Shown here: in pieces, positions 22,858 to 64,000 of the stretch
Numbering within the stretch: the first letter of the stretch is position 1
Layout of the letters: the number at the start of each line of letters is the position of its first letter
Assembly: GCA_963750185.1 (NCBI GenBank)
Contig: CAVVPV010000028.1
Location: 57,435 to 121,434, forward strand
DNA from: an uncultured Verrucomicrobiae bacterium
GTDB lineage: Bacteria > Verrucomicrobiota > Verrucomicrobiia > Chthoniobacterales > JAFAMB01
DNA length: 64,000 nt
Reading direction: 5' to 3'
Translations under genes and position numbers: made by a program
Notes under the pieces: generated by a model
Told to the model about the DNA's origin: nothing
What the model saw: only the letters and a program-made list of their open reading frames with translations
Databases searched by the model: none

Positions 22858-23871
22858 TTAGGGTGACGATTTTGCCGGAGCCTCAGGCGGAATAGAGCCC
22901 GTTGTTTTTGCGGCGGCGTGTTTTATGAGGGCAAATATGTCGCTGTCTGTGGAGAGCACGAGCGTGGAATCTTTGGTAAATATTTTGTGATAAATCTCGA
23001 GGGTCTTGACGAAGGCGTAGAACTCGGCGGCTTGCGGATCTTGCGTATAGGCACGGGCGTATATTTCCGAGGCCTTGGCGTCAGACTCGCCCCGAATCTG
23101 CTGGACCTGCCGATAGGCGTTGGACTGAATTTCATTGATATCGCGGTCGCGCTGGCCCGCAATGCGTGCGGATTCACCTTCACCCTCGGAACGAAAGCGC
23201 TGTGCGATCTGGAGTCGCTCGCTAATCATGCGCTGATAGATGCGGTCGAGGACATCGGGATTGTAATTTACTCGCTTGATCCGGAAATCGAGCACGGTGA
23301 TGCCAAACTCTCCCAGTTTTTGCGCGGCGGCTGTTTTGATTTCTTCTTCAATCTTCTGCCGGCCGAAGTTGATCGGTGGAAGGACGCCAAGGGTGCCGGT
23401 GGCACCGCCTTTGAGCGTCTCGTCGCGCATTGGTTGGCGGTTCTTGTCGGTGCGCACGATTTCGATAAGGTCGTGTTTGGCGATTGAGTTGCGTGTTTCG
23501 CTGCCGAGTATGTCTTCGAGGCGCGACTGGGCACTGCGCTCATCGTGCAAACGAACGAAATAGGTCTTCGGGTCTTCAATGCGCCAACGGGCGAATGTGT
23601 CAACGTGGATGTAAGTCTTGTCTCTTGTGGGTATAGCTACCGGAGGGCCGTCCCACTCCAGGAAGCGCTTGTCGAGAACGTTCACGTTTTGCACGAATGG
23701 GATCTTGAAGTGCAGACCCGGCTCTGTGATCGGGTTCCCGACCGATTGCCCAAACTGCGTGACGATCACCTGCTCGGTCTGGTCAACCGTATAGAACGCA
23801 CCGGACAGAACAAGGAACAAGACAACGGCGACCGCGATAAGTGCTGCTAGTATGGCGGTGTTCTTTATCAT
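22858..23871 (-). CDS. hflC: Protease modulator HflC (SPFH/band-7)
   Basis: 337 aa with an N-terminal TM helix, an SPFH domain, and the HflC-type coiled-coil block RMISERLQIAQRFRSEGEGESARI. It overlaps hflK by 4 nt. Confidence 0.88.
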   Translation of the reverse strand: MIKNTAILAALIAVAVVLFLVLSGAFYTVDQTEQVIVTQFGQSVGNPITEPGLHFKIPFVQNVNVLDKRFLEWDGPPVAIPTRDKTYIHVDTFARWRIEDPKTYFVRLHDERSAQSRLEDILGSETRNSIAKHDLIEIVRTDKNRQPMRDETLKGGATGTLGVLPPINFGRQKIEEEIKTAAAQKLGEFGITVLDFRIKRVNYNPDVLDRIYQRMISERLQIAQRFRSEGEGESARIAGQRDRDINEIQSNAYRQVQQIRGESDAKASEIYARAYTQDPQAAEFYAFVKTLEIYHKIFTKDSTLVLSTDSDIFALIKHAAAKTTGSIPPEAPAKSSP

Positions 23872-24857
23872 CGCGGTACCTCTCCGGGTTTGGTCGAGAG
23901 TGGCAGGATCGGAAGCAGTTGCCGCAGCGATTCGTCAACAATGATCTTTTGCCCCGTCTGAGGCAGAATTTGACTCATCGTCTCGAGGTAAAGGCGGGTG
24001 CGGGTGATCTCTGGCGCCTTGATATATTGTTGTAGCACGGCGCCAAAAGCCGCGACGTCGCCCTCGGCCTCGTTGACGCGCTTGAAGCGATAGCCCTCCG
24101 CCTCGCGTATTGACTGGTCGGCTTCACCTTTGGCTTTCGGCACTACCTTGTTGTACTCGCCGTTGGCTATATTGATCGCGTTTTCGCGGTCCTGCTGGGC
24201 TTTGTTTACCTCGTTAAACGAGGCTTGCACCTGACTGGGCGGGTTCACGTTTTTCAACTGCACCTGATCCACGCGAATGCCGAGATGGTACAACTTGGAC
24301 AATTCCTGCATCCGGGCGAGCGCCTCGATCTCAATGTCTTGCCGGCCAACGGTGATCAGTTCGTCCACTGTGCGATCTCCGACCACTTCACGCATTGCGG
24401 CCTCCGACAAATCGCGGAGGGTTTCCGCGGGATTTCGTACTTCGAAAAGATACTGCCTCGGGTCTTCAATGCGATATTGCACGACCCATTCCACAAGTGC
24501 CGCATTCAGGTCGCCGGTGACCATTGACTTTTCCTCATCCGGCTCCTCGCCGGCCTGATCGGGATTCGTGAGCGGGCCCGGCGTGGAAAAGCCGAACTCG
24601 AGCTTCAACTGCCTCCTTGTCGGCAAGACGGTTACCCTGTCGATCCCAAATGGGAGTTTGAAGTGCAACCCCGGTTCGACAGTCGTTAGAAACTTCCCGA
24701 AACGCAGAACCACACCCTCCGAATCGGCTCCCACTGTGTAGTAAGAGGTCAAGCACAGTACCGCGATCAGCAGGACACCGATGAAAAGCAAGGCGATCCG
24801 ACCGACCGACCGGGGATCCAAATTGACGTTGATTGAGCGCGGCGGATAATCAGTCAC
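23868..24857 (-). CDS. hflK: Protease modulator HflK (SPFH/band-7)
   Basis: 329 aa with a TM helix, an SPFH domain, and HflK-typical VNPPSQVQASFNEVNKAQQDRE. Confidence 0.88.
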   Translation of the reverse strand: MTDYPPRSINVNLDPRSVGRIALLFIGVLLIAVLCLTSYYTVGADSEGVVLRFGKFLTTVEPGLHFKLPFGIDRVTVLPTRRQLKLEFGFSTPGPLTNPDQAGEEPDEEKSMVTGDLNAALVEWVVQYRIEDPRQYLFEVRNPAETLRDLSEAAMREVVGDRTVDELITVGRQDIEIEALARMQELSKLYHLGIRVDQVQLKNVNPPSQVQASFNEVNKAQQDRENAINIANGEYNKVVPKAKGEADQSIREAEGYRFKRVNEAEGDVAAFGAVLQQYIKAPEITRTRLYLETMSQILPQTGQKIIVDESLRQLLPILPLSTKPGEVPR

Positions 24858-27872: not shown

Positions 27873-30377
27873 TCACGCCCCGCTTCGGAGCGAATTCCCG
27901 TTTGCCGGTTCACCTTGTTCCGGCTGAGTCACCTTGAACGCAAGTTGTTCACCGGCCGCGTGCACCTCCAGCGAGTCGCCCTGCTTGAAGTTCCCTCGGA
28001 GGAACCCTTCTGCCAGCGGATCTTCCAGGTGTTTTTCCACAGCACGGCGCATCGGTCGAGCGCCGTAGCTTGGATCGTATCCCTTATCAATCAGAAACTC
28101 GACTGCGGTTGTATCCAGGCGAATCTGGATATCCTTGGCGCGTACCCGCTCGATGACTTTTGCCACCTCGAGATCCACAATCTTGATCAGGTCGTTCCGT
28201 TCAAGCTGGTGGAAGACGATCATGTCATCCAATCGGTTCAAGAATTCCGGTTTAAAAACCCGTTTTGATTCGTCCTGAACCTTGTCGCGCATTACCTCGT
28301 ACGATCCGTGGCCGGCGCTCGCGCCAAAGCCCATCGTCGTTTGGCGTTTGATCAGCTCCGCGCCCACATTCGAGGTCATGATGATAATCGTGTTTCGAAA
28401 ATCGATCCTTTGTCCGAGGCTGTCGGTGATTTTGCCCTCCTCCAGAATCTGGAGCAGGAGATGCATGACATCCGGATGAGCCTTTTCGATCTCATCGAAT
28501 AGCACAACAGAGTAGGGGCGCCGTCGAACCGCTTCGGAAAGCTGACCGCCTTCTTCGTAGCCCACATAGCCAGGAGGCGAACCGATCAGACGCGACGCGG
28601 TGAATTTCTCCGTGTACTCAGACATGTCGATCTGAATCAGAGCGTCAGCGTCACCGAACATGAACTCCGCCAGCGAACGTGCCAGAAACGTTTTTCCCAC
28701 GCCGGTCGGACCCATAAAGAGGAATGACCCAATTGGCCGACGTGGATCTTTCAAATCGGCGCCGGAGCGTCTTAACGCCTTGCTGATGGCAATCACCGCC
28801 TCGTCTTGGCCGATGACTTGCTTTTTCAGCTCCTCCTCCATTTTGAGCAATTTCTGCGCTTCTTTTTGCTCCATGCGGTTCAGCGGCACCCCGGTCCACT
28901 TCGACACGATGTACATGATATCGTCGCCCGTGACGATGGTTTCGCGCTCATCGCCCTGTTTCTGCCACTCGTTTAATATTCGTGCCAGGTCATCTTTGGT
29001 ATGCTGTTCGGAATCTCGCAACGCCGCTGCCTTTTCATAATCTTGTGCTTTGATCGCCGCTTCTTTCTCGTCGCGGATCGTCTCGATTTTTTTCTCGATC
29101 TCTTTTACATCCGGCGGCCGAGTCCTGGCGTTGATGCGCGCCCGCGCGCCCGCTTCATCCATGACATCGATGGCCTTATCCGGCAGGAAACGGCCAGTAA
29201 TATATCGATCGGAAAGCCGAACGGCTGCTTCGAGCGCCTCGTCGGTAAGCTTGGCTTTGTGATGGCTCTCGTACTTCGGGCGCAAGCCTTTCAAAATCTG
29301 AATCGCTTCTTCTACGGTGGGCGCTTCGACCTTGACTGCCTGGAATCGGCGTTCGAGCGCGGCATCTTTTTCGATGTACTTCCGGTACTCGTCGAGGGTG
29401 GTGGCTCCAACGCACTGCAGTTCGCCCCGGCTGAGTGCCGGTTTGATAATGTTTGAGGCATCCAGAGCACCCTCCGCTGAACCCGCACCGACGATCGTGT
29501 GCAGCTCATCGATGAAGAGGATGACGTCCTTCGAGCGACGAATCTCATCCATCACGGCCTTGATTCGCTCTTCGAACTGCCCACGATATTTTGTTCCGGC
29601 CACCATGAGCGCGAGATCGAGCGTCACGACGCGTCTATCGCGCAACAATTCCGGCACATTCCCAGCGGCGGTTTCTTGAGCCAAACCTTCGACGATGGCG
29701 GTTTTTCCAACTCCTGCTTCGCCGAGCAGCACCGGGTTGTTTTTGGTGCGTCGGCACAGTACCTGAATCACACGTTCGATCTCGTTCTTGCGACCGATGA
29801 CAGGATCCAACTCCCCTTTCTTCGCCATCTCGGTCAGATCGCGGCCGAATGCGCGCAGCGCGGGCGTCTTGGCATCTTTCTTACCCCCCTCCTGCGGGGA
29901 CTCAGCCTCGCCTTCAGGCGGTGAAAAGTTCGGGTCCAATTCTTTTAGAATTTCGTTTCGCGTTCGTACGGGATCGACTTCCAGACTCTTTAATACCCTT
30001 GCGGCGACTCCCTCACCTTCCCGCAAGAGGCCCAGTAAAATGTGCTCGGTACCTACGTAAGAGTGATTCAACGCTTTGGCTTCTTTGCCTGCCAATGCCA
30101 ATACCTTTTTGACTCGGGGCGTGTACGGAATGTTCCCAATCATGTTCGTCTCGGGACGCGAACCGATATGCTTCTCCAGTTCTGTGCGAACTCTCTCCAG
30201 ATCGAGCCCCATCTTTAGCAGCACATTGACTGCTACGCCCTGTCCAAGTTTGATCAGCCCGAGCAACAGGTGTTCCGTTCCCACGTAGTTGTGGTTGAGC
30301 CGCTCGGCCTCCGTGCGCGCAAGCGCCAAGACCTGTTGGGCACGTGGAGTAAAATCATTCATTATTGCGTTTCCCAT
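27873..30377 (-). CDS. clpC: ATP-dependent Clp protease ATP-binding subunit ClpC
   Basis: 834 aa. It has a duplicated Clp_N repeat and two AAA+ modules ([16 protein letters not shown]). A UVR-like linker is present ([22 protein letters not shown]). Confidence 0.93.
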
Positions 30378-30965
30378 GCCGGGCCCGCTGCCTGACGCAG
30401 TCGAAATCGACAGAACACCGGCACCTCAACATTTAACATCAAAGCTAAAAGAAATCGAATATCCCGATGAGTAACAATCGAGATATTTTTACGCGAAATC
30501 TGACCGCAGAACCTGAACTTAATTGCCCACCGAAATGCACGGCAGGTGTTTATGTATCCGACAATCTTGCCAGGACGAAGATTAATTGACCCGGAAGCTA
30601 GCAATTGGAACCGCTTTCAAGCTGAGACAAACCTGGTGGTTCAGGTCAAAAAGCTTGACTCGATGAAACCGTGGCTGGTTTGATTTCGATTGGTGATACA
30701 AAAATGGGCTCTGAGCAAAAGATGTGCTGCGAAGTATGTATTATTTGGGGCGTCCATTGAAGCCCGTCGCCGTGCGCAAGCACCCGAAGAGCCGCTCTGG
30801 CAAAGGCCAAAGCGGCGGCCTCGGCCCTGCGGGCGCATTTTTCGTGAAAAATGCGGGCTAAAGTTCCCTTCCCACTTCTTCAGGGATCGGGTAGAGTTTT
30901 TGTGCCGCGTCGAGCGAATCAACCGCTCAAAAGCCTTTCGAAATTTGAAAACTAAAGGCAACTCT

Positions 30966-33900
30966 TTAGCGATCTGAACTCTCGGGCGGGGAAAGATGAT
31001 AGGGCTTCCCTTCCTGGTAAAGCTTCAGCCGGATGTTCATTCCCGAAATTTCATTGGTGTCGGAAGAATCGATTAGCTTTAATGCCGCCTGCTGGTCGGC
31101 GATAGCTTGCGCGAAGTTTCCAGCCTCGGCATCAGCCGCCGCCAGCGTATCGAGATCTTCCCAGTACTGTCCTTCTGTTAGAATACAGGCCTGTTTAGCA
31201 TCCCGAACGGCCTGGGTCCCATTGCGCACTTCCGCAGACGGGCAGGTCGCCATGAGCCACGCCCTGCCGCTGTAATTGACCGGGTCCTTCTGGTTGAATT
31301 GAATCGCCGCACCATAAGCGTCGACAGCCTTACGGTAGTTGTCTTGCGCCTCCTGAGTCTTACCTTGGCGATAGAGAATGTAGCCAATCCTTGCGTAAGT
31401 GAGCGACAAATTGTGCCGCCAATCGGTACCGGGGGAATTCTTTTGCACGAACATCGAAAAGCTTTTCAGGGCTGATTGATATTGCCCCGCGGCAGGCTCT
31501 AAGTCGCCCAACATGGTCATGGCATCACCCAAATCTAGATAGCCTAAACCAAGCAAATTTTCCGAGAGAAGATTGCTTCCGTCGTGCTCGCTCAGCGCTT
31601 GGAAGGTGAGGCTTTGCTTGAAATTTTCGCGCGCACTCTCCCATTTGCCCTGGGCACGATAATAGTTCCCGAGGAAGACGTACCCAAAGGCTAACTCCCG
31701 TTGCAGGTCGGTATTGGCGGGGTTTTGTACTGCAAGATTTTTCTCCTTATCCAGTCCACTTGTCAGATAGAACAAGGCGCCGTTTTCGCCGTCGAGTTTA
31801 CCTTTCTGCAAGAGCAGGCGCCCCAGAGTGAGATAACTATAGAAGAGAGAGCGCTGCCAGTTCACATCGTCCTGATGTAATTGGGCATATTTACTTCGAA
31901 TTTGCTTCGCTTGTTCATACGCCTGTCGCGCCTCCTCAAAATGGCCGAGGATATTGTTCGCAATACCGATGCGGCTGTAGGCATTGGCCAGATCGAGTTG
32001 GTATCGTTCATTGTTTTTATCCTGACTGGCGAGCCTCTTCCGAAGATCGAGACTCTGCAGGTAGAAGTTGGTAATAGCCTCGTCTGGGCTGCCCTCCTGC
32101 CTAATAATATCTCCTTTTCGGCTGTAAATGTTGGCGAGTTGCTGGTCGACCCAGATTGCCTGGTCGCCTTCCTGCGATAGCGCGCCCACTTTCTTGGTGA
32201 TTTGCAGGCTCTCATCATAGAGGCGGGAGGCGTCCTCATATTTTCTCTCTAGGAACAGCGCATCGGCCTTACTACCTCCGCTCATAGGATTTGCCGGTCC
32301 GCTGAGTTGTTCGGCCAACTCGCGTTGGTATTTGATTCCGGGAATTCCCGGATTATTATCCGCTAGTTGGCGAGCGATAGAGATGCTTCGGTCATAGCAA
32401 TCCATGGCTTTGGGGAGATTTGCTTCGGCCTTTAGCACGTCTCCCAGGGTCCGGTAGACCGATTCCTGAAAATGGAGCTGGGTATTGCTCATCCCGCCTT
32501 CGTCGATTCTCTGCAGGTCAAGCATTTGCAAAGCTCTGTTGGCCGCTTTGTCCAGCAGCGAAACCCGCCCAAGGCCGCTGAGCTGATGTTGGAGGTCCGA
32601 GAGCATGAAGTCAATCAGATGATCTGCGCTGTCGTTGGAGTGTATGATCTTCTTCTTATAGGCAAAGGCCACCCTCCATTGCCAAATGCTGACCACCAGG
32701 CAGACAAGGGCCAAAAGACAGACGAACTTCAATTGCAGGTTCCGGCGTCGCGTGCTGCGCAATTCGCGATCCTTCGCACGAATCTCCGCATCTGCCTGCG
32801 CGGTCCGTGCTTTGGCTTCCAAGGCCGCTTCTTTGGCTTTTCTCTCGTCGCGGCTTTTCTTGATCACGTCGGTCAGGACATCGTGAGTCAATTCAACGCG
32901 TGGCATCCGGGCGCTGTCTTCGATCCGAATCAAGCGCCGGTCGATAAGTTTTGAAATAGCATCGTGTGAAACCCCCGGTATTGTCAGGGCATCTTGCAGG
33001 TCCACGCTGTTGCGGTAGCCGGAACCCGTGAGGAGCTTGTCCTCAATGAAGTACCGCAATCGCTCGTCGAATCCGCTCAGCGCGCGATCGTAAAAGCCGG
33101 TCAGTATGACCTCTTTGGACCCGGAAATGAGTTGGGGCGTTATTTTGGAATCCCAGCGAGCGATACGGGTGCTGTTTAATTCTCGGCAAAAAACGCTCAG
33201 TAACGTGGGCTCCACCTCGAGATTCGTCAACGGTACGTTCGCGAGCGCATCCCGTCCTGCAACGATCTTGACGATTTTCTCCCCGACTTCCTCGTCAACC
33301 AGCGCGCCGCCGGCATTAACGACGACTTCTAAGGCCTGCCCACCAGTCATCTTTTGAAGACGAAATCGGTTATGGGTGATCGAGGGGAGTTGATTGGAAA
33401 AACCTTCGAGGTTGGCCAGGAAATCTTCGCGAAGTGCAAAAACAACCTTGTAGTCATTTCTATAAAACGAAAATGTCTCCTCGCCGTCAGACTCCAATTG
33501 TATTTCGACGGCTTCGGGTGGACGGTTTTCGATTAGGTCTCCCAATTCCGTAAAAAGGGCGGTTATGCGCCGGTGGCATTTATCCCTGTTTGATCCCAGC
33601 GTAAAAATCTCTTCCAACTGGTCAAAAACGAGGACAGGTGTGATCACTCGCCCTTCTTGCGTCTTGAACTCATTGGTCGCACGATGAAAATAGGCCCAAA
33701 GGGTATCGCCCGGACGAATCAGCGGGGAGGAAATACGGGCCGTGGTGCCGGCATCACGAAGCGTTTCTTGCACCTGCGAGACTAAGTCCGGCGCCGCTTC
33801 GGCATAGTTCAACCGGACGTAAACTGGGAGGAAGTGTTCCCGACGCAACAAGGGAAAAATCCCCGCCTGCAGAAGGGATGTTTTGCCCAAGCCTGACAGC

Positions 33901-34118
33901 CCAAACATTATGGTCAACGTTTCACGCTTGATCAGCCGGAACAGCTCGGCTGCCTCCTTGTCGCGACCATGGAAAAAGGAGGCATTATCCTCGGTGAACG
34001 CGCTTAACCCCGGCCAAGGGTTCTCCTCGTTGACCTGTTTATCGTTCTTTTCGAGTGCCCTGGTATCAGTATGCATTCTCGAACCTTTCGACTTGGCCAT
34101 GAACCGTGCCGAGGACAC
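30966..34118 (-). CDS. nSTAND-type (STAND superfamily) P-loop NTPase with a central hydrophobic helix and C-terminal TPR array
   Basis: The N-terminus NPWPGLSAFTEDNASFFHGRDKE, then Walker A GLSGLGKTS (K79) and Walker B VLVFDQLEE, follow the pattern of nSTAND1-like NTPases. A basic coiled coil covers residues 420-460, and a hydrophobic helix LQLKFVCLLALVCLVVSIWQW spans nt 32676-32738. About 560 aa of TPR-like repeats follow. Alternative starts at 34100 and 34076 all overlap the upstream gene's stop at 34066. Confidence 0.8.
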   Translation of the reverse strand: MSSARFMAKSKGSRMHTDTRALEKNDKQVNEENPWPGLSAFTEDNASFFHGRDKEAAELFRLIKRETLTIMFGLSGLGKTSLLQAGIFPLLRREHFLPVYVRLNYAEAAPDLVSQVQETLRDAGTTARISSPLIRPGDTLWAYFHRATNEFKTQEGRVITPVLVFDQLEEIFTLGSNRDKCHRRITALFTELGDLIENRPPEAVEIQLESDGEETFSFYRNDYKVVFALREDFLANLEGFSNQLPSITHNRFRLQKMTGGQALEVVVNAGGALVDEEVGEKIVKIVAGRDALANVPLTNLEVEPTLLSVFCRELNSTRIARWDSKITPQLISGSKEVILTGFYDRALSGFDERLRYFIEDKLLTGSGYRNSVDLQDALTIPGVSHDAISKLIDRRLIRIEDSARMPRVELTHDVLTDVIKKSRDERKAKEAALEAKARTAQADAEIRAKDRELRSTRRRNLQLKFVCLLALVCLVVSIWQWRVAFAYKKKIIHSNDSADHLIDFMLSDLQHQLSGLGRVSLLDKAANRALQMLDLQRIDEGGMSNTQLHFQESVYRTLGDVLKAEANLPKAMDCYDRSISIARQLADNNPGIPGIKYQRELAEQLSGPANPMSGGSKADALFLERKYEDASRLYDESLQITKKVGALSQEGDQAIWVDQQLANIYSRKGDIIRQEGSPDEAITNFYLQSLDLRKRLASQDKNNERYQLDLANAYSRIGIANNILGHFEEARQAYEQAKQIRSKYAQLHQDDVNWQRSLFYSYLTLGRLLLQKGKLDGENGALFYLTSGLDKEKNLAVQNPANTDLQRELAFGYVFLGNYYRAQGKWESARENFKQSLTFQALSEHDGSNLLSENLLGLGYLDLGDAMTMLGDLEPAAGQYQSALKSFSMFVQKNSPGTDWRHNLSLTYARIGYILYRQGKTQEAQDNYRKAVDAYGAAIQFNQKDPVNYSGRAWLMATCPSAEVRNGTQAVRDAKQACILTEGQYWEDLDTLAAADAEAGNFAQAIADQQAALKLIDSSDTNEISGMNIRLKLYQEGKPYHLSPPESSDR

Positions 34119-35442
34119 TCTTAATCCAGTTCAAAAATTCAGCCGTCAGGTGACCTCCCGGAAAAATTTCGTAATGCTTGTTTCCGAACCGCAGCGGTAC
34201 CGCGGCATCATCAATCGGTATCGGAATCAAAAACAGTTCCTCGGCATTCATCCGGCGGGCCCGCTCTTCAGCGCACTTCCATTCCTCGTAGAAGACGCCT
34301 TCCCGACGGCGTTGCGTGTTGCGTGAGACTATTGGGAAAAAGAGAAAACAGCTGAGTATAGTTTGATGAATCTTCTCTGACCACTCTTCGCCGTGCCGAA
34401 TCCGGCTGCGGTCCAGCCAGACATTCAATCCGGCCGCTTCCAGGGATTCCGCAATTCGGAAAGCCGCGTCGAAATCCTCGCGGGCATAGCTCAAAAATAT
34501 GACCTCTTCTTCCGGGTCTGGCTTGATAGTTCGGAAAGAACTATCAACGGTCGCGTTGTCCTCTGCTGTATCGTCCGGATAGCGTTCCTGCCAGCGTTCG
34601 AGAAGTTGATCGACAAATTCAATCGGGCCGCTTTCAGTGTAAACCTCCGCCTGATTCCGGCCGAAGCTCTCGAGGAAGAAAATGAAATTCGAGTCCTTCC
34701 GCACCTGCTCGTCAGCCAGGTACTGCATCATGTAGCTGCTTCCAGCCGAAAATCGTTCTCCCCTGGCCAAGCGAACGAAAAATCGGGCAAGCCAGTCCGG
34801 AAAGCTATTTCCAATAAAAAGAAGATGATTATTTCTTAGTTCGTCGAAGAGTCGATTCGGTCGGCGTTCCTTCGATTGCAGCGATGAGATAAATTCCAGG
34901 GTATCCTCGTCCGTTACAGCATAGTCCGGAATAGCCGATACCTTGCCAAAGAGCCTGAAAACAAGAGGCTGTCTCAAATGATGATAATCGGTTGGCAGGT
35001 CCGACTCATCCCGCAATTGGTTTGGCACGTAGACCCGGCTGATTGTCCGCGGAGCGCCGGCGAAACGTTCTGCGTTCAGGGCTTGTTCGAGAAGAGAATC
35101 GAATGTGGTGCTGACAAAGAGCTTTAGCGGCTTTATTCGGGCGAGCTTTCTCAAAGGATCAGGGATGTCTATCGAGATTTTTTCCAGGATGGATCTAATT
35201 TTCCGGTAGATCGTCGAAGGCGGCTTCCCCGTTTTTAGATGTTTGCACACAACATCATTGATGTTGTAGTCACTTCGCAATGTCCCCGGATCAATTCCCA
35301 GTTCGGCTGCAAGCAAGGTAGCGATATGATGATAAAGAAGAACATCCCGGCCGCCGACTTGAATATTCAGAAGCTCGGGACCAAGGACGGGAACGACTCT
35401 CTCGTCCTTAATAAAATCGATCAGATCATCCCAGAATTCCAT
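34066..35442 (-). CDS. SIR2-like (SIR2_2-type) domain fused to a C-terminal TIR domain
   Basis: N-terminal blocks: VVPVLGPELL, LFVSTTFDSLLEQAL, VFRLFGKV, AVTDEDTLEF, LLFIGNSFPDWLARFF. By eye these align with the SIR2_2 motifs (G.G.S / TTNYD.LLE / KLHGS / T..DY / F.GYS..D). C-terminal residues 313-440 look like TIR: VIFLSYAREDFDAAFRIAESLEAAGLNVWLDRSRI..GEEW...FFPIVSRNT...FYEEWKCA. Confidence 0.75.
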   Translation of the reverse strand: MEFWDDLIDFIKDERVVPVLGPELLNIQVGGRDVLLYHHIATLLAAELGIDPGTLRSDYNINDVVCKHLKTGKPPSTIYRKIRSILEKISIDIPDPLRKLARIKPLKLFVSTTFDSLLEQALNAERFAGAPRTISRVYVPNQLRDESDLPTDYHHLRQPLVFRLFGKVSAIPDYAVTDEDTLEFISSLQSKERRPNRLFDELRNNHLLFIGNSFPDWLARFFVRLARGERFSAGSSYMMQYLADEQVRKDSNFIFFLESFGRNQAEVYTESGPIEFVDQLLERWQERYPDDTAEDNATVDSSFRTIKPDPEEEVIFLSYAREDFDAAFRIAESLEAAGLNVWLDRSRIRHGEEWSEKIHQTILSCFLFFPIVSRNTQRRREGVFYEEWKCAEERARRMNAEELFLIPIPIDDAAVPLRFGNKHYEIFPGGHLTAEFLNWIKSVLGTVHGQVERFENAY

Positions 35443-35901
35443 ACGGTCGGCCTAATTATGAGAACACGACATTTTGTTTAAGCATCGGCGAATTGCCGCC
35501 GATTACTGTCTCCGCTAAAGGTTAATACAGTTTTTTCCGTTTCCAGGTTTCGAAAATGGGAAGAAAGCTTTTCTTAAAGCTTCAAAAAGTGAAATTCAGT
35601 CAATCGCCAGACGCTCAGTCGTCGTTCTCGCATTGGCGGCGGACTAACCAAAGTGCCTCGTGCGAAACTATTGGAAAGGGTGCAGCCAACGAATCTTGAC
35701 TGACTCCAAGCAGCTCTGGACATGCGGATAATGCTTTCCGAGTGGCTTGCAACGGGCGAAGCTTTAACAAGTTTGTAAATTGCGAAATCTTGAGGCTAGC
35801 CTCAAAACTCCAGATCCGCCCCTGGCGGCAGATAGGCAGGAAGAGGAACCGAGATGAGATGGTTTTGCTCTGGTAGAAGAGGGTGAAGAAGGCTGCTTTT
35901 T

Positions 35902-36328
35902 TTGCCCGAATGTGGCAACAATTTCGGCATGCCACAGGTACAATTACCGATCTTTCCGGCAGGAGTCACGCACATCAATTCGGAGGTCGCCTTTGAGGGG
36001 CGGGATGGAAAGGTGTACTACTTTAATGGCCATCTGCCGGTGTTTGTCCATGAGAAGAGTGCTCTGGGGACTTTCCGGCTTTTTAGTACCCAATTGGTCA
36101 TCAATGGCAATGCGACTCAAGCGGAGATCTGATCCCGGATTACTGAGTGTGTTGGGTGAGCAGATTGTGCCACGGCTCAAAGCCGATGTGCCAAACCAGC
36201 CCACTGAAAAGCAACCGGAAGCAGACCCGCTCTTAAGCCGCTTTACCATCGTCTTCGACCGCGAAGGCTACTCGCCACGCTTCTTCGCCCAGATGAAAGA
36301 GGAGCGCATCGCGAGCCTTCGATTTTAG
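35902..36328 (+). pseudogene. Internally deleted, frameshifted fragment of the same transposase family as 20159-21432
   Basis: An N-terminal 75 aa (MPQVQLPIFPAGVTHINSEVAFEGRDGKVYYFNGHLPVFVHEKS...) ends in a stop. Another frame then gives GEQIVPRLKADVP...RFTIVFDREGYSPRFFAQMKEERIA. This matches RQSIVPRLLAEAP...RFTLIFDREGYSPDFFAELKAQRIA of the 20-kb copy. Confidence 0.7.
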
Positions 36329-36446: not shown

Positions 36447-37241
36447 CTACTTGGTCTCCATTTCCTGGTCCCACGGTTTTGCCAGCTGGTGGAGGAGCGC
36501 TTTGGCCTGTAATGGCGGCAATTGTGGAAAAACTGAAAGGATTCGTGCGAGTAGCGCCGTCACGTGAGGGGCGGCGAAACTGCTACCTGAGGTCGATTTT
36601 CGCCTTCTGTTGCGCCACGGAACATCGACTTTTTCGCCATTCGCCACAAACTCCACAAGCGCCCCCGGTCGATAATACAACTCTTCCGAGTGAAGCTGGC
36701 GAAAGTCGACGGTAATCACCGAAGCAAAGGACCCCGGCCACTCCGGTTGACGAAAATCTACATTGCTGCAAGCGGCAACGATGTGGGTCCCTTTAAGGTA
36801 CGCTTCGTCCACCCAGCTCTTATATCGAAGGATATGATCCGGCAAGCCACACCCAAAACTGCAATTCAGTATTTCGTAGTTGCGCGCCAACGCTTGGCGC
36901 GCGCCTTCGCGCACTATATCGGTCTTCGACATGTTAAATGCATCTAAGATGCGGAAACTGCCGATTTCAGCCTCGGGTGCCAGGCGATGAATGATTCCGG
37001 CGATGGCTGTACCGTGGCCAAATACGTCCGTATTTTCCCCCTGCTTGACCTCAGGTTGCACTCCGGACTCTGCGATCTGTAGATCGTCTGCGGACTTGAG
37101 CCCGGCCAGGTCTGGATGATCGAACTCGATGCCGCTGTCGAGAACCGCTATGCGCACGCCTTTGCCGGAGCCGTGCAGCATCGCTTGCCGGGCTCTATCC
37201 AGGTCGATCCACATGGGTGTCGAATCTAAGCTGCGTTCCAT
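36447..37241 (-). CDS. Subtilisin-like S8 serine peptidase, no signal peptide or prodomain
   Basis: 264 aa. Catalytic triad contexts: AVLDSGIEFDHPDL (Asp), FGHGTAIAGII (His), TSGSSFAAPHVTA (Ser). It overlaps the upstream GAF gene by 16 nt. Confidence 0.88.
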   Translation of the reverse strand: MERSLDSTPMWIDLDRARQAMLHGSGKGVRIAVLDSGIEFDHPDLAGLKSADDLQIAESGVQPEVKQGENTDVFGHGTAIAGIIHRLAPEAEIGSFRILDAFNMSKTDIVREGARQALARNYEILNCSFGCGLPDHILRYKSWVDEAYLKGTHIVAACSNVDFRQPEWPGSFASVITVDFRQLHSEELYYRPGALVEFVANGEKVDVPWRNRRRKSTSGSSFAAPHVTALLARILSVFPQLPPLQAKALLHQLAKPWDQEMETK

Positions 37242-37834
37242 CCCAACGCCTCGCGCAACATTTGGAAGTCGATGAGATCGCGCATGATCGATGCGCCGTC
37301 CTTCAATGCGAGCAAGTCCTTTCGAGCGAAGCCGGGAGGAATAGGTCCGACCGGGACGGCTTGCCCTGCCGCAAGGTAAGCGTCGATCAGCTGTACGCAG
37401 GTAATGACACCTCGCCGCTGATTGAGAAAATAGAACGGAACTACGATCATCGCATAGGTTGTTTGATTTAGCAGGCGATTGAGTTCATGATCGTGCTCGA
37501 CGTTCTTGTAGACTTCGTTTTCGACCAGGCCCTGCTCAGTCGCGAATGTTGCGCTAACGAGACCCTTGGAAAGCGATTGCGCGAAGCCGATTACCTTCTG
37601 TGCGTTTGGACCGCTATTATAAGCAATGACCAGATTCTTTTTTTCTGTGTCCAGAAGCCAGATGCTGCCTTCCGCTGCGCCGACGGCGCCAAAGGTCCGT
37701 TCCAGAAACCGAAAAATGATAGGATCGCAGAAATCCACGAAGTTTCGGTGATCGATCAGTCGGGCCATTTTTGCCAGTTGGTCCTGCAGCGCTGGTTTTA
37801 GATCAAGAAAAACTTCGCTTGGAATAAAATTCAT
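37226..37834 (-). CDS. GAF-domain protein
   Basis: 202 aa with a GAF-like pattern: GAAEGSIWLLDTEKKNLVIAYNSGPNA...GLVSATF...VVPFYFLNQRRGVITCVQLID. Confidence 0.7.
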   Translation of the reverse strand: MNFIPSEVFLDLKPALQDQLAKMARLIDHRNFVDFCDPIIFRFLERTFGAVGAAEGSIWLLDTEKKNLVIAYNSGPNAQKVIGFAQSLSKGLVSATFATEQGLVENEVYKNVEHDHELNRLLNQTTYAMIVVPFYFLNQRRGVITCVQLIDAYLAAGQAVPVGPIPPGFARKDLLALKDGASIMRDLIDFQMLREALGWNAA

Positions 37835-38492: not shown

Positions 38493-38978
38493 CTAGAGTT
38501 CGTATCTGACAGGCTTCGTCTCACGCGGGACGTAGAGAGGGTGGTATGGATAGCCGGCTTTCGTTCTTTTAAGACAATACAAATCAATTTGCGATAGGAT
38601 CTTTAATACGCGCGTGCATCGATCCTGATGGCGACCAAGAGTCCCCCATGCTGCGATCACCAGTTCAGTGTCGCAGACCGCTTGGAGGATGCACCGATCA
38701 TTCTCCGGTCCGACCGGATCCGGCTCTGTGTAAAGCCGGGTCGGGTCGGTCGAGACCAGCGCAAACAGGTTGGTCATGATGAATCCGTTGCATCCCCAGG
38801 CAGTGGAAAACTCGCGGATGCGCCGAAGCGTGGGGTCGAGCCGGGTCTCATCGGCAACACTGGGATTTAGCCCTATCCATGTACATAGCATTGGGGCAAA
38901 TAGAGATTCCCAGGTATGCTTGAGCAAATATCGGTACCTGCGATCAGGACTAAAAACAGAGTCGTTCTGCATCACCAA
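38493..38978 (-). CDS. DUF1643 family protein
   Basis: 161 aa. The blocks RYRYLLKHTW...WIGLNPSVADETRLDPTLRRI...GFIMTNLFA...VIAAWG...HPLY match my memory of the DUF1643 pattern. Confidence 0.7.
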   Translation of the reverse strand: MVMQNDSVFSPDRRYRYLLKHTWESLFAPMLCTWIGLNPSVADETRLDPTLRRIREFSTAWGCNGFIMTNLFALVSTDPTRLYTEPDPVGPENDRCILQAVCDTELVIAAWGTLGRHQDRCTRVLKILSQIDLYCLKRTKAGYPYHPLYVPRETKPVRYEL

Positions 38979-61697: not shown

Positions 61698-62089
61698 TTA
61701 GCTAGAGCCTGTTGCGAAATAGCTGCAAGCCGCGTCCCGTAGGGACACACCGATTGTAGCCTGGCACGCAGTGCCTGGGAAGCGTGTCTAGAAAGAAGCC
61801 GTCCCGTAGGGTACGGTATGATCGGGCGGGACGGCTCGTTTAGGGCGCGCTGTACCAGGCACTTCGTGCCAGGCTACGATCATGCAGTCCCTCCGGGACA
61901 TTTGGCCGGTAGCTCTCACGCCGCCACATGCCCACGGCACCGCGCTAATCACATATCAGACCGTATCCCTAGACCTGCGGGGCGGCGACTCTTCGGGCAT
62001 GCATTCCAGGAGTTCGTACCGGGTTACCATCGTTCACCACCCGGCGTCTCTTTCGATCTCCGGCACATTTCGCAACAGGCTCTAGCTAA
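61698..62089. mobile_element. MITE-like non-coding element bounded by perfect 23-bp terminal inverted repeats
   Basis: ttagctagagcctgttgcgaaat (61698-61720) is the exact reverse complement of atttcgcaacaggctctagctaa (62067-62089). The interior holds inverted copies of tagcctggcacg(c/a)agtgcctgg and gtcccgtagggac-type hairpins. No coding capacity is evident. Confidence 0.6.
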
Positions 62090-64000
62090 ACGATTTTCCG
62101 GAGCCTGAATCCCGATTTTTCAATCAGCGGCCCCAGATTTCTGACCGTGTCGCGGTCCTTTTCTTTCTCGGGTTCCGACAATTGCGTCCACGGAACGAGC
62201 AGGGGATGATGCTTACGGGAATTGTCTCTCGAAGGTGCAAAGGTCCAGCCGTTTTGACGGCGCTCGTCCATCCAGCGGTCATGCTCGCGGATGGCGAGGT
62301 CTTCGATCTCGTGTGCGGCGAGCTGGAGCTTTGAAGGGCTAAGTCCGTGACTTGGCGAGAGCTCGTAGCCGAGCCGGTTTAACTTGTTAGGAATGTCAGC
62401 GGCTTGAGCGCGATTAGCGTCCTTGACGTCTTCTGATAATTCTTCCCAGGGCCGCAGCGCGCTGTTATTCGCCGGCGTCTTCCCTGCGGCTTGGGCTTTC
62501 GCACAATAAAACGAGTGGATCGCCTTTGCTAGCTCTTCGATATCCAAAGAACGTTTAGGGATGATGCGATAAATGCGATATTGGCCTGGGAAATCTTTTG
62601 CCAATTTCATGCTGCCGGCATATTCGCAGATGAAGCGTGATTCCTGCTGACTTTGGCCGCTGTTGATTCGCCGCTGGATTTCCGAACCTAATTCGGCCAT
62701 GGCCGCAAACTCTTCGCTCGCATAGACCTCTCCCGGTCTGGTTACCGGCTCGATCCTTGCCGCACGACTGACGTGTGCGCCGGTGAAACCAAGTTGGCGA
62801 ACAACAGGATTATAGTGCATGAATACCGGGCCGCTATGGAGTCCGATCCGAATGTTAAGCGGTGTCTGGACTTTTTCGCCGTCACCCGGGGAAGGTGCCT
62901 CGTAATAAAGACCGCGGCTTATCCAAGTTTCTTCGCCCTCTTTGATCAACTTTGTTAATTCGAGAGCAAAGCAGCCTGCGTCGTGCGCAAGGTCGAACAC
63001 CGCGTACACAGCGTCTCCCCAAGTACTGACGCTTATCGGCGCGTGTTTACTGGAAGCGAGCAATTGAGAGACTTGCTCCAGGAATACCCCTACAAATTCA
63101 GGAATTACCTTCTCGGTTAGTTTGCTGTATCCAACGATATCTGCGAATAACATGCTCTTCACTTCCTGGTGAAGTGTGGCTCGCTCGCTTCGGTTCTTTA
63201 GAGGCCGGAAATAGGTTACGGGATCCGGTGCCTCGGGCATTCGGACGATGATCGGTTCCTGTTTCAGCTCATGTCTCCAAAAGTGGACAAACGAAGCGGT
63301 CCCGCCTTCTCCGGCGCCAGGCAAGCCGTCCCAAAGCACCATTGGTTGAACATCCAATCGGGAAGCTCGCGCCGTATGGAGCGCGAGACCGGCGGTTACT
63401 TCGAGGGCAAATTGCCAGCTGACATCGCTCCCCGGCTCATACAGTTGACCGATTTCACGGACGGTTGCCGCATCGCGAATAGCCTGGTCGAACAGGGGAG
63501 TCCAAATCGCTGGACCATGCTCCGGCTCAAATTGAGTGACGCTAGTTTGGCGAAACTCGGCCTTGGACCACGGAAGCACAACGTGAACTTCTGCCCCGCG
63601 CTCTCGCAGTGCTTCAATGAAAAGAAGATCAGCACCGGCAGCTGCGTTTACGAGGCCCACTCGCACGTCCGCATCAATGACTTGCGCGCTCAAACGCTTA
63701 CGGACCAGATCGAGTATTTCAATTGGGAAACGGCCTCTTTGTCCGGGTGGATCCGGCAAATGCCCGGAAAAAACAACCAGCTGTAGCGGGGGAAAGGCTG
63801 ACTTAAAGAAGCTTCGTGGTTGACCGACCGCTTCTGCCAAAAATTGAGCGTCGTACCTGGCACCGGCCAGATCTGCGACCTTGACGCCATGCAGCCCTGC
63901 CATGTCGTGATAATTGGCAAAGGCAATGTCCAGCTCACCGAGGATGGTATGCGCGATCGCGCGAGCGTGCACGACAGCAACTCCAGGACCCTCGTCCTGT
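62086..64000 (-). CDS. Multidomain signalling protein: unassigned Rossmann-like N-terminal domain + class III nucleotidyl cyclase + RyR-domain repeats (5' end outside window)
   Basis: Cyclase blocks: SMLFADIVGYSKL, TWGDAVYAVF, RIGLHSGPV, FTGAHVSRAARIE. C-terminal RyR-like blocks: LAKAIHSFY...PWEELSEDVKDANRAQAADIPNKL and IREHDRWMDERRQNGWTF...HPLLVPWTQLSEPEKEKDRDTVRNL. The frame upstream of the track's GTG (63972) stays open to base 63999, so the gene is probably 5'-truncated by the window. Confidence 0.75.
   Translation of the reverse strand, partial: QDEGPGVAVVHARAIAHTILGELDIAFANYHDMAGLHGVKVADLAGARYDAQFLAEAVGQPRSFFKSAFPPLQLVVFSGHLPDPPGQRGRFPIEILDLVRKRLSAQVIDADVRVGLVNAAAGADLLFIEALRERGAEVHVVLPWSKAEFRQTSVTQFEPEHGPAIWTPLFDQAIRDAATVREIGQLYEPGSDVSWQFALEVTAGLALHTARASRLDVQPMVLWDGLPGAGEGGTASFVHFWRHELKQEPIIVRMPEAPDPVTYFRPLKNRSERATLHQEVKSMLFADIVGYSKLTEKVIPEFVGVFLEQVSQLLASSKHAPISVSTWGDAVYAVFDLAHDAGCFALELTKLIKEGEETWISRGLYYEAPSPGDGEKVQTPLNIRIGLHSGPVFMHYNPVVRQLGFTGAHVSRAARIEPVTRPGEVYASEEFAAMAELGSEIQRRINSGQSQQESRFICEYAGSMKLAKDFPGQYRIYRIIPKRSLDIEELAKAIHSFYCAKAQAAGKTPANNSALRPWEELSEDVKDANRAQAADIPNKLNRLGYELSPSHGLSPSKLQLAAHEIEDLAIREHDRWMDERRQNGWTFAPSRDNSRKHHPLLVPWTQLSEPEKEKDRDTVRNLGPLIEKSGFRLRKIV

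What the first reader, a model, noticed from the sequence alone, without database searches (positions are those of the whole stretch)
30966..35442. Coupled gene pair, SIR2-like/TIR fusion + nSTAND NTPase-helix-TPR: a candidate NAD-targeting defence module I cannot match to a named system
Seen in sequence: two minus-strand genes overlap (stop of the first at 34066; possible starts of the second at 34118, 34100 or 34076). This implies co-transcription and translational coupling.

Gene 1 (458 aa) carries a SIR2_2-like Rossmann domain directly fused to a TIR domain. Gene 2 (about 1040 aa) has the NPWPGLxxFxxxDAxxFFGR lead-in, Walker A GLSGLGKTS and Walker B LVFDQLEE of nSTAND1-like STAND NTPases. 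A basic coiled coil, one hydrophobic helix and a long TPR array follow.

Established knowledge: SIR2 and TIR domains are the NAD+-degrading effectors of Thoeris, DSR1/2, SPARSA/SPARTA and several Avs/bNACHT proteins. STAND NTPases with repeat arrays are the ligand-sensing switches of Avs-type systems.

Inference: this is a sensor (STAND-TPR) plus effector (SIR2-like/TIR) conflict system. Both NADase folds are placed on a separate polypeptide instead of being fused to the STAND N-terminus. It is not Thoeris, because there is no SLOG domain and TIR and SIR2 sit on one chain. It is not DSR, because there is no giant C-terminal sensor on the SIR2 protein. It is not a canonical Avs, because the effector is not fused. 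It sits in an AT-richer island next to transposase debris, which fits a defence-island context.
Basis: partly seen in the sequence, partly recalled or inferred. Interest (0 to 1): 0.85.

Follow-up and report, generated by a model that had tools for sequence, protein, structure and literature searches.

The report
Membrane-anchored STAND switch with TIR partner
This is a real, widespread but unnamed two-gene module in which a membrane-spanning ATPase switch, whose sensor probably faces outside the cytoplasm, is paired with a TIR enzyme carrying a dead SIR2-like domain; it looks like an immune or signalling device but does not sit in defence islands.

Summary
Two overlapping minus-strand genes encode a 458-aa SIR2_2+TIR_2 protein and a 1036-aa nSTAND1 NTPase followed by a stalk, one transmembrane (TM) helix and TPRs.

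The pair is a conserved unit. All 78 related loci with room downstream, from several phyla, keep the nSTAND1 gene directly 3', most often with a 4-nt overlap. The two genes co-vary (r=0.97), and one natural fusion exists. The family has about 2,900 clusters at 50% identity. No PADLOC or NCBIfam model, and no paper I could search, names it.

- The SIR2-like domain lacks both ThsA catalytic residues family-wide (Asn→T113, His→F165), so only the TIR, with invariant E387, is a plausible NAD+-cleaving enzyme.
- The single TM helix is conserved and obeys the positive-inside rule. This predicts an extracytoplasmic sensor, which swaps between TPR, WD40 and other classes.
- Neighbours are mostly housekeeping genes, with no phage hit and one chromid hit, so the defence-island context is not supported.

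New finding: a TPR-S/nucleotide-cyclase gene lies within 7 kb in 29 of 80 loci and about 27 kb away in this window.

Verdict: a new variant of STAND/TIR conflict or signalling systems. Its function is untested.

The parts
34066..35442 (-). Gene 1: a 458-aa protein with an N-terminal SIR2-like domain, a disordered linker and a C-terminal TIR domain.
   Evidence: The ORF is and Pfam finds SIR2_2 plus TIR_2. The AF2 model has mean pLDDT 80. Its best fold matches are ThsA, KomC, Avs5 and DSR2. The family comprises 2,872 clusters at 50% identity with E<=1e-30.
34573..35442 (-). SIR2-like Rossmann domain (about aa 1-290), predicted catalytically dead. It carries TTFD (T113) where ThsA has TTNYD, and LFG (F165) where ThsA has LHG.
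   Evidence: An HMM alignment to SeThsA 7uxt (E=0.034) and an hhalign run (E=4.3e-6) give the same register. Across the family the positions are T113 and F/L/M/Y at 165. ThsA N112A and H152A abolish NAD+ cleavage and binding (PMC7272460).
34144..34509 (-). TIR domain (about aa 312-433) with the invariant glutamate E387 in the catalytic position.
   Evidence: Pfam TIR_2 scores E=3.8e-16. The closest solved sequences are the SPARTA TIR-APAZ chains, and E387 aligns to their Glu77. Invariant residues are F316, S318, Y319, W342, D344 and E387.
34066..34076 (-). An 11-nt overlap between the gene 1 stop codon and the gene 2 start codon (ATGCATACTGA), consistent with translational coupling.
   Evidence: The junction sequence is and an independent gene call agrees. 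Across the family the commonest junction is a 4-nt overlap, seen in 28 of 77 loci.
30966..34076 (-). Gene 2: a 1036-aa protein made of an nSTAND1 NTPase, a basic helical stalk, a single TM helix and a TPR array.
   Evidence: Pfam nSTAND1 scores E=1.5e-29 together with TPR families. In the AF2 model residues 10-470 have pLDDT mostly above 90.
32883..34034 (-). nSTAND1 NTPase module (about aa 15-398), consisting of a P-loop, a helical lid and a winged helix. It includes NPWPGL, Walker A with K65, and Walker B D152/E155/E156.
   Evidence: Invariant columns are listed. The nearest folds are Cdc6/Orc1 and the archaeal Arch_ATPase proteins, with NLR resistosomes and Avs5 lower in the list.
32658..32882 (-). 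Basic coiled-coil stalk (aa 399-450) that continues into the single TM helix (aa 451-473).
   Evidence: AF2 predicts one continuous helix over residues 399-475. The TM segment is conserved at about aa 440-480 in nearly all full-length partners. The N-side flank has more K+R than the C-side flank in 54 of 57 partners.
31014..32624 (-). C-terminal TPR array (about aa 485-1021), the predicted extracytoplasmic sensor. This region evolves fast and is swappable.
   Evidence: Pfam TPR hits are. The region is all-helical in the AF2 model but at low confidence. Among related loci the window's array is a singleton sensor class; other classes are WD40 (15 loci), a roughly 600-aa helical class (40 loci) and two further singletons. 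Only 23 weak homologs were found.
62086..64000 (-). Candidate third component, not adjacent to the pair: a class III nucleotide cyclase plus RyR-domain protein whose N-terminus is cut by the window end. It is homologous to the TPR-S/cyclase gene that flanks the pair in other genomes.
   Evidence: tblastn shows 49.5% identity over 644 aa to the L088 gene that sits directly 5' of a 59%-identical pair. Pfam finds Guanylate_cyc plus RyR. Homologs lie within +-7 kb of the pair in 29 of 80 loci, and TPR-S plus Guanylate_cyc is confirmed in L046, L047, L008 and L054.

Best explanation
The locus encodes a two-protein switch-and-enzyme module.

Gene 2 is an inner-membrane-anchored STAND (nSTAND1) NTPase. 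Its NTPase faces the cytoplasm. A long basic helix runs into a single TM span, and the variable repeat domain (TPR here; WD40 or other domains elsewhere) lies on the far side of the membrane.

Gene 1 is translated in a coupled fashion. It is a cytoplasmic protein built like ThsA, with a SIR2 fold followed by a Rossmann-like domain. Its SIR2 fold has lost the catalytic Asn and His, and its C-terminal domain is a TIR that keeps the catalytic Glu.

Proposed mechanism (inferred):
1. A ligand binds the repeat sensor.
2. The signal crosses the membrane through the stalk and TM helix.
3. The STAND exchanges nucleotide and oligomerises.
4. The oligomer recruits or clusters the SIR2-like/TIR protein. 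The dead SIR2-like domain serves as a docking or oligomerisation scaffold.
5. Clustering assembles composite TIR active sites that cleave NAD+.
6. The output is NAD+ depletion and/or an ADPR-derived signal. In lineages that carry the adjacent TPR-S/cyclase gene, that protein may read the signal.

Shown here: the domain identities, the catalytic-residue status, the conserved operon, the conserved TM helix, the sensor swapping and the cyclase association.

Inferred: the membrane topology, the direction of signalling, TIR enzymatic activity and the biological role (immunity or envelope surveillance).
For: - Domains are confirmed by Pfam.
- All 78 loci with room downstream keep the nSTAND1 gene 3' on the same strand. 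They come from Beta- and Gammaproteobacteria, Verrucomicrobiota, Acidobacteriota and Thermodesulfobacteriota. Junctions are mostly overlapping.
- Pairwise identities of the two genes correlate at r=0.97, and 0 of 999 Mantel permutations reach that value.
- A natural fusion of an nSTAND1 NTPase plus stalk to a SIR2-like/TIR module exists (P0353).
- The TIR Glu E387 is invariant and aligns with SPARTA Glu77.
- The SIR2-like domain adopts a ThsA-like fold but has Asn→T113 and His→F165. The equivalent ThsA mutants are inactive.
- Walker A and B motifs are invariant.
- The TM helix is conserved, follows the positive-inside rule in 54 of 57 partners, and is modelled as one continuous helix with the stalk.
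- At least five sensor classes exist, including WD40.
- A TPR-S/cyclase gene lies near the pair in 29 of 80 loci and a homolog is in the window.
- TPR-S was previously predicted to sense TIR-derived signals, as cited in 10.64898/2025.12.03.692087.
Against: - There is no experimental evidence of any kind.
- No adaptor domain (EAD or Death-like) that would explain recruitment was detected.
- The topology rests on hydrophobicity and charge bias alone. The C-side flank is also fairly basic (3.4 K+R per 15 residues).
- The family is not enriched next to defence genes and is absent from phages and true plasmids. This weakens an anti-phage role.
- The cyclase is missing from most loci and lies 27 kb away in this window, so it may be unrelated here.
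- The alignment that establishes loss of the SIR2 catalytic residues is remote (E=0.034 and 4.3e-6), although two methods agree on the register.
- The TPR region of the model is low confidence.
Confidence: 0.55

Rival explanations
1. This is a cytoplasmic Avs-like abortive-infection system in which a STAND-TPR sensor detects a phage protein and unleashes two active NADases (SIR2 and TIR) supplied in trans.
For: STAND, TPR, TIR and SIR2-fold parts are all typical of Avs, Thoeris and DSR systems. The operon is conserved. In the window a transposase remnant and a PADLOC 'subtilase' hit lie nearby.
Against: The SIR2 catalytic Asn and His are absent family-wide. A conserved TM helix separates the NTPase from the sensor. 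Neighbourhoods are mostly housekeeping. No PADLOC Avs model hits gene 2. There are no phage hits and only one plasmid-collection hit.
Confidence: 0.12
2. A Toll-like-receptor-style transmembrane signalling pathway rather than a suicide system. The extracytoplasmic repeat sensor reports an envelope or periplasmic cue. The TIR then makes an ADPR-derived second messenger, not bulk NAD+ depletion. A TPR-S/cyclase protein decodes that messenger into cAMP or cGMP.
For: The topology is predicted to be N-in, C-out. TPR-S plus Guanylate_cyc genes lie directly 3', or divergently 5', of the pair in many loci, and a homolog is present in the window. TPR-S is a predicted sensor of TIR products, and ThsI uses such a TPR with canonical cADPR. 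The family has a housekeeping-type chromosomal context and stable vertical co-inheritance.
Against: By sequence the TIR is closest to NAD+-depleting effector TIRs, namely SPARTA TIR-APAZ and CBASS TIR-SAVED, and only weakly similar to ThsB. The cyclase is absent from about 64% of loci. No ligand-binding assignment could be made for the cyclase's middle domain.
Confidence: 0.28
3. The hydrophobic segment does not span the membrane. It is instead a peripheral anchor or an oligomerisation helix, and the whole STAND, including its repeats, is cytoplasmic as in canonical Avs proteins.
For: Avs sensors characterised so far act in the cytoplasm (PMC13581612). The C-side flank of the helix is still rich in K and R. 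No topology experiment exists.
Against: The segment has 21-27 consecutive hydrophobic residues with a Kyte-Doolittle mean of 2.0-2.8. Its position is conserved but its sequence is not. The charge bias holds in 54 of 57 partners. AF2 models it as an exposed continuation of the stalk helix, not packed against a domain.
Confidence: 0.12
4. The TIR domain acts only as a protein-protein adaptor, as in animal TLR signalling, and the module has no NAD-directed chemistry.
For: The partner SIR2-like domain has already lost catalysis, which shows that this family tolerates non-enzymatic use of enzyme folds.
Against: The catalytic Glu (E387) and surrounding motifs are invariant across 31 diverse members. 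They align with the active sites of enzymatically active TIRs, including SPARTA, AbTIR and SARM1.
Confidence: 0.08

Closest known systems
Type I Thoeris effector ThsA (SIR2-SLOG)
   Same: ThsA is the best structural match for gene 1 over its whole length: a SIR2 fold followed by a Rossmann-like C-terminal domain. The SIR2_2 motifs align in register.
   Different: The catalytic Asn and His are replaced by Thr113 and Phe165. The C-terminal domain is a TIR rather than a SLOG. There is no separate ThsB gene, and the partner is a STAND NTPase. NCBIfam and PADLOC Thoeris models score far below their cut-offs.
Avs/AVAST antiviral STANDs (for example Avs5 SIR2-STAND, and TIR-Avs)
   Same: Both combine a STAND NTPase with a C-terminal repeat sensor and a NAD-targeting effector fold. 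Oligomerisation-driven activation is the expected logic in both.
   Different: Here the effector is a separate, translationally coupled polypeptide. A TM helix separates the NTPase from the sensor. The NTPase belongs to the nSTAND1 clade and has no close solved relative. No PADLOC Avs model hits it. The family is not in defence islands.
nSTAND1 conflict systems of Kaur, Iyer, Burroughs and Aravind (eLife 2021, PMC8195603), and the DGR-diversified STAND sensors (PMC10907252)
   Same: The NTPase clade is the same (Pfam PF20703). The repertoire of TIR-type effectors and repeat sensors is also shared. The DGR paper also predicts periplasmic placement for some STAND sensor domains.
   Different: Those descriptions involve effectors that are fused or linked through EAD or Death-like adaptors. 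Neither paper mentions a SIR2-like/TIR partner protein or a conserved stalk-TM architecture.
SPARTA TIR-APAZ (short pAgo systems)
   Same: These are the closest solved TIR sequences. The REG...E motif is shared and the catalytic Glu77 aligns with E387. The top PADLOC TIR hit is also of this type.
   Different: There is no Argonaute or APAZ domain. The activator here is a STAND NTPase rather than guide-target nucleic acid.
Animal Toll-like receptors (analogy only)
   Same: The logic is similar: an extracytoplasmic solenoid repeat sensor, a single TM helix and cytoplasmic TIR-based output.
   Different: There is no homology beyond the TIR fold. Here the TIR is on a separate protein, a STAND NTPase intervenes, and the TIR is predicted to be enzymatic.

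Membership tests
Thoeris (type I) | A ThsA effector with a catalytically competent SIR2 domain (Asn112/His152 in BcThsA). | tested here: not met
   The equivalent positions are T113 and F165, conserved as non-catalytic residues across 31 members. The role of these residues in ThsA is documented in PMC7272460.
Thoeris (type I) | A SLOG/STALD signal-binding domain on the effector, and a separate ThsB TIR gene. | tested here: not met
   No SLOG or STALD Pfam hit was found, and the C-terminal domain is TIR_2. The TIR and the SIR2-like domain are on one chain, and no ThsB-like neighbour is present. NCBIfam Thoeris ThcB4 scores 24 bits against a cut-off of 220.
Avs/AVAST | A single polypeptide combining an N-terminal effector, a STAND NTPase and a C-terminal sensor. 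| tested here: not met
   The effector is a separate gene in 78 of 78 loci and in nearly all of the top 150 family representatives. Only about 18 residues precede the NTPase lead-in motif in gene 2. One fusion exists, but in the reverse order.
Avs/AVAST | A STAND NTPase with intact Walker motifs and a repeat sensor. | tested here: met
   Pfam finds nSTAND1 and TPR families. Walker A and B residues are invariant.
Avs/AVAST | Anti-phage activity triggered by recognition of a cytoplasmic phage protein. | not testable with these tools
   This needs phage challenge experiments. The predicted extracytoplasmic sensor argues against a cytoplasmic trigger.
DSR1/DSR2 | An active N-terminal SIR2 domain fused to a large C-terminal sensor on the same chain. 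| tested here: not met
   Gene 1 is 458 aa with no sensor domain. DSR2 matches only through the SIR2 fold, and the catalytic His (H171 in DSR2) has no equivalent here.
SPARTA/SPARSA | A short pAgo partner and an APAZ domain. | tested here: not met
   The PADLOC Aga_TIR model hit covers only the TIR portion (profile positions 3-113 of 443). No Argonaute gene is in the neighbourhood.
nSTAND1-centred conflict systems (Kaur et al. 2021) | An NTPase of the nSTAND1 clade. | tested here: met
   PF20703 scores 104 bits against a cut-off of 27.1. All 34 aligned partners match the model.
nSTAND1-centred conflict systems (Kaur et al. 2021) | An effector that is fused, or coupled through an effector-associated or Death-like adaptor domain. 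| tested here: inconclusive
   No EAD or Death-like Pfam hit was found in either protein. Coupling appears to be by operon only, and the dead SIR2-like domain may play the adaptor role (inference).
Defence-island-resident anti-phage systems (operational definition) | Enrichment next to known defence genes or on mobile elements. | tested here: not met
   Of the 137 nearest neighbours from 47 loci, only isolated PADLOC hits were found and the rest are housekeeping Pfam families. There are no phage hits and one chromid hit.

The most novel reading that the evidence does not exclude
This family may be a bacterial counterpart of Toll-like-receptor logic. A repeat sensor outside the cytoplasm (TPR, WD40 or other) would signal across the inner membrane through a STAND NTPase to a cytoplasmic TIR enzyme. 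The NAD-derived product of that enzyme would be read by a TPR-S/nucleotide-cyclase protein. The result would be a transmembrane TIR-to-cNMP signalling cascade used for envelope or periplasm surveillance, rather than a classical cytoplasmic abortive-infection system.
Probability: 0.22. Interest if true: 0.9.

Novelty: new variant of a known kind. Interest (0 to 1): 0.68.

Why it matters
STAND/NLR-type sensors characterised in bacteria so far are soluble cytoplasmic proteins that recognise phage proteins. A large family whose STAND sensor domain is predicted to sit outside the cytoplasm would extend NLR-like sensing to the envelope. This family has about 2,900 clusters at 50% identity and occurs in more than 500 species-level genomes.

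It would also supply a bacterial system with TLR-like topology that uses a TIR output.

The dead SIR2 domain shows an NADase fold reused as a non-catalytic module. It could explain how effectors supplied in trans are coupled to a STAND without the known adaptor domains.

The recurrent TPR-S/cyclase partner suggests a testable link between TIR products and cyclic-nucleotide signalling.

Because the family is not in defence islands, guilt-by-association screens would miss it. At least one cultured carrier exists, Paraburkholderia caribensis MBA4, so experiments are feasible.

Tried and rejected
- The SIR2-like domain alone (a 12-sequence profile) found nothing in the PDB by sequence. A 24-sequence profile and hhalign were needed to obtain the ThsA register.
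- From motif resemblance (FSGH..., AAGADLLFIE) I suspected that the middle domain of the cyclase partner is a SLOG-type sensor. Neither a PDB profile search nor Pfam supports this.
- I suspected that P0353's N-terminal extension was the cyclase. It is an nSTAND1 NTPase.
- P0224 (TIR_2+nSTAND1) next to a 287-aa SIR2_2 gene looks like a frameshift or assembly artefact in a normal pair, so I did not count it as a fusion.
- Promoter and terminator scans of 30300-36000 were at chance level and are uninformative.
- Literature searches found no description of this architecture. They covered 'nSTAND1', 'SIR2-TIR', 'TIR-SIR2', inactive SIR2 plus TIR plus STAND, and membrane-anchored or periplasmic STAND. 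I also checked the text and supplements of the Sorek-lab TIR survey. The searchable corpus is incomplete.
- The homolog search with the TPR sensor gave only 23 weak, generic TPR hits, some of them Ser/Thr-kinase-TPR proteins. This is not informative about the ligand.
- The mirror-tree correlation shows co-inheritance only. It is not evidence of physical contact.

Full report
**Observation.** Gene 1 (34066..35442, 458 aa) ends with TGA at 34068-34066. Gene 2 can start at GTG 34118, ATG 34100 or ATG 34076. ATG 34076 follows a GAAAGG motif and gives an 11-nt overlap. It is also the start chosen by an independent gene caller on the source contig, ENA metagenome ERZ25039491 contig_45549, giving 1036 aa.

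Pfam supports every domain call above its gathering threshold. SIR2_2 covers residues 108-239 and TIR_2 covers residues 315-423 of gene 1. nSTAND1 and a long series of TPR families cover gene 2. The region is slightly AT-richer than the window, at 0.524 against 0.549, but 7.9% of equal-size windows are as low or lower. A Transposase_29 fragment lies upstream.

**Is the pair a unit?** Gene 1 belongs to a large family. A profile search of 1.84 billion representatives gives 2,872 clusters at 50% identity with E<=1e-30. Nearly all of the top 150 are stand-alone proteins of 440-480 aa. A scan of one genome per species found relatives in at least 507 genomes. I fetched 80 loci from Beta- and Gammaproteobacteria, Verrucomicrobiota (Opitutaceae, Chthoniobacterales), Acidobacteriota (Thermoanaerobaculia), Thermodesulfobacteriota and others.

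In 78 of the 80 loci a homolog of the gene 2 NTPase (43-52% identity) lies on the same strand immediately 3'. The other two have fewer than 200 nt of contig left. The commonest junction is a 4-nt overlap, in 28 of 77 loci. Pairwise identities of the two genes correlate at r=0.97, and 0 of 999 Mantel permutations reach that value. This shows co-inheritance as one unit.

Short partners of about 650 aa are also preceded by the SIR2_2/TIR_2 gene. So are the closer TPR-bearing relatives of the window's pair. One natural fusion exists. P0353 (1006 aa) is an nSTAND1 NTPase plus stalk (36% identical to gene 2, E=1e-54) joined to a SIR2-like/TIR module. It sits inside a tandem array of such genes.

**Gene 1.** The AF2 model has mean pLDDT 80. 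It matches ThsA best, over its whole length, followed by KomC, Avs5 and DSR2. The protein is therefore ThsA-like in plan: a SIR2 fold followed by a Rossmann-like domain.

Two independent profile alignments to Streptococcus equi ThsA give the same register (HMMER; hhalign, E=4.3e-6). The Asn of TTNYD falls on T113 (TTFD). The His of LHG falls on F165 (LFG, with F, L, M or Y across the family). In ThsA, N112A and H152A abolish both NAD+ cleavage and NAD+ binding (PMC7272460). The same substitutions appear in a 30%-identical copy in Paraburkholderia caribensis (MTCD and MFG). I conclude that the SIR2-like domain is not an NADase.

The TIR, by contrast, keeps an invariant Glu (E387). It aligns with Glu77 of the SPARTA TIR-APAZ chains, which from memory is their catalytic residue, and those chains are its closest solved relatives. 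The best PADLOC hits are also effector-type TIRs, while ThsB models score weakly.

**Gene 2.** Walker A and B and many other NTPase positions are invariant. The AF2 model is confident for residues 10-470. It shows a P-loop, a lid and a winged helix, followed by one continuous 77-residue helix (399-475) that runs into the hydrophobic segment. The nearest solved folds are Cdc6/Orc1 and archaeal Arch_ATPases, with NLR resistosomes and Avs5 lower down. nSTAND1 therefore has no close structural precedent.

The hydrophobic segment is conserved in position in essentially every full-length partner. The N-side flank carries more K+R than the C-side flank in 54 of 57 partners, with means of 5.8 and 3.4. 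Because the NTPase must be cytoplasmic, a single span predicts that the C-terminal repeats lie outside the cytoplasm.

That C-terminal region is not conserved. Among 58 partners, 40 share a helical domain of about 600 aa, 15 carry WD40 propellers, and the window's TPR array and two others are singletons. The window's TPR array has only 23 weak homologs in 5.8 billion proteins.

**Context.** The defence-island idea fails at family level. Of the 137 nearest flanking ORFs from 47 loci, PADLOC at 1e-5 finds only isolated hits (one each of mad3, REase_II, a QatD/TatD-like protein and SoFic, plus a few candidate families). Pfam shows ordinary metabolic and envelope genes. Individual look-ups show fumarate reductase, acetyl-CoA synthetase, threonine biosynthesis and glycosidases. 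Gene 1 has no tblastn hit in 50,697 phage records. It has one hit in 72,556 plasmid records, on a 2.5-Mb chromid. In the window itself there is IS debris, which is polymorphic: a 910-bp indel at 36130/36131 separates the window from a 99.8%-identical contig. There is also an S8 peptidase that hits a PADLOC 'subtilase' model. This is thin evidence for a defence island.

**A third component.** Clustering of neighbours revealed a gene of about 600-660 aa directly 3' of the nSTAND1 gene in many betaproteobacterial loci. It encodes TPR-S (PF20308) plus a class III nucleotide cyclase domain. Homologs lie within +-7 kb of the pair in 29 of 80 loci, either 3' on the same strand or divergently 5'. In a 59%-identical relative of the window's pair, a homolog with an added RyR domain sits directly 5'.

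The window encodes a 49.5%-identical copy at 62086..>64000, on the same strand and about 27 kb away, cut by the window end. [quoted passage not shown] The Sorek-lab survey assigns such a TPR to the cADPR-responsive effector ThsI (10.64898/2025.12.03.692087). This suggests, but does not show, that the TIR product can act as a signal in this family.

**Known or new?** PADLOC-DB v2 and NCBIfam have no system-level match. nSTAND1 was named by Kaur et al. 2021 (PMC8195603) in systems with fused or adaptor-linked effectors. Neither that paper nor Kaur et al. 2020 mentions a SIR2-like/TIR partner. The 2025 TIR survey and the 2026 STAND survey are guided by defence islands or defence scores. They do not describe this architecture in their text or in the supplements held. 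Targeted searches returned nothing. The corpus is incomplete, so prior description elsewhere cannot be excluded.

**Verdict.** It is a STAND-sensor plus TIR-effector module with the effector supplied in trans. It carries only one plausible NAD-cleaving domain, a predicted membrane-spanning architecture with an external, swappable sensor, no defence-island signature, and a recurrent cyclase partner. I rate it a new variant of a known kind, of considerable interest, with all functional statements still inferential.

Noticed in passing
window 62086-64000 (-): This is a partial gene for a class III nucleotide cyclase plus RyR-domain protein. It is homologous to the TPR-S/cyclase genes that flank SIR2-like/TIR + nSTAND1 pairs in other genomes. 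From my own knowledge, cADPR acts via ryanodine receptors in animals, so a RyR domain on a partner associated with a TIR system is a curious coincidence.
   Followed up: partly
window 36447-37834 (-): A 264-aa S8 peptidase hits the PADLOC 'subtilase' model at E=1.3e-20, with weak IetS hits. It overlaps by 16 nt with an upstream 202-aa ORF that has no hit in Pfam or PADLOC. This may be a small two-gene module of its own.
   Followed up: partly
window 35912-36328 (+) and position 36130/36131: This is a Transposase_29 fragment. A 99.8%-identical metagenome contig (L081) carries an extra 910 bp at this point, with a longer transposase ORF and an HTH ORF. The IS remnant about 690 bp upstream of gene 1 is therefore polymorphic in the population.
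   Followed up: yes
L094 1-5404: This locus holds a tandem array of three genes. The first is a SIR2-like/TIR gene. The second is an nSTAND1 NTPase plus stalk fused in frame to a second SIR2-like/TIR (P0353). The third is another nSTAND1 gene. All junctions overlap by 4 nt. In the fused protein the TM helix and sensor are missing.
   Followed up: partly
L001 4903-6765, L005 4870-6786, L014 4865-6787: In three WD40-class loci, an ankyrin-repeat protein of about 620-640 aa lies directly 5' of the pair on the same strand. It hits the PADLOC candidate family PDC-M72A.
   Followed up: no
L002, L017, L038; and L021/L028/L034 (one Opitutaceae MAG): Some loci carry a second tandem nSTAND1 paralog after the first. 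One MAG has three separate copies of the pair. This points to paralog expansion.
   Followed up: no
Alignment A6, short partners of about 650 aa (for example P0220 in L084, P0176 in L086): The short partner forms have, after the TM helix, a C-terminal domain of about 180 aa with conserved cysteines (consensus ...GxGCL...FxxC...) and no Pfam hit. This would fit an extracytoplasmic globular sensor.
   Followed up: no
L093 7725-11344 (Paraburkholderia caribensis MBA4, NZ_CP012748.1): A cultured soil strain carries a distant copy of the pair (30% and 35% identity) with a 4-nt overlap. The stretch is unannotated in the gene table held for the plasmid collection. It is a possible experimental host.
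   Followed up: partly
window 22858-24857 (-): Two tandem overlapping SPFH/Band_7 genes of 337 and 329 aa lie downstream of the ClpC-like gene region.
   Followed up: no
window 38493-38978 (-): A DUF1643 protein of 161 aa lies here, next to an LprI-domain gene and an SLT-like transglycosylase gene according to the gene calls on L081.
   Followed up: no
window 9475-15030 (+): A very long ORF of 1851 aa lies here. I did not examine it.
   Followed up: no
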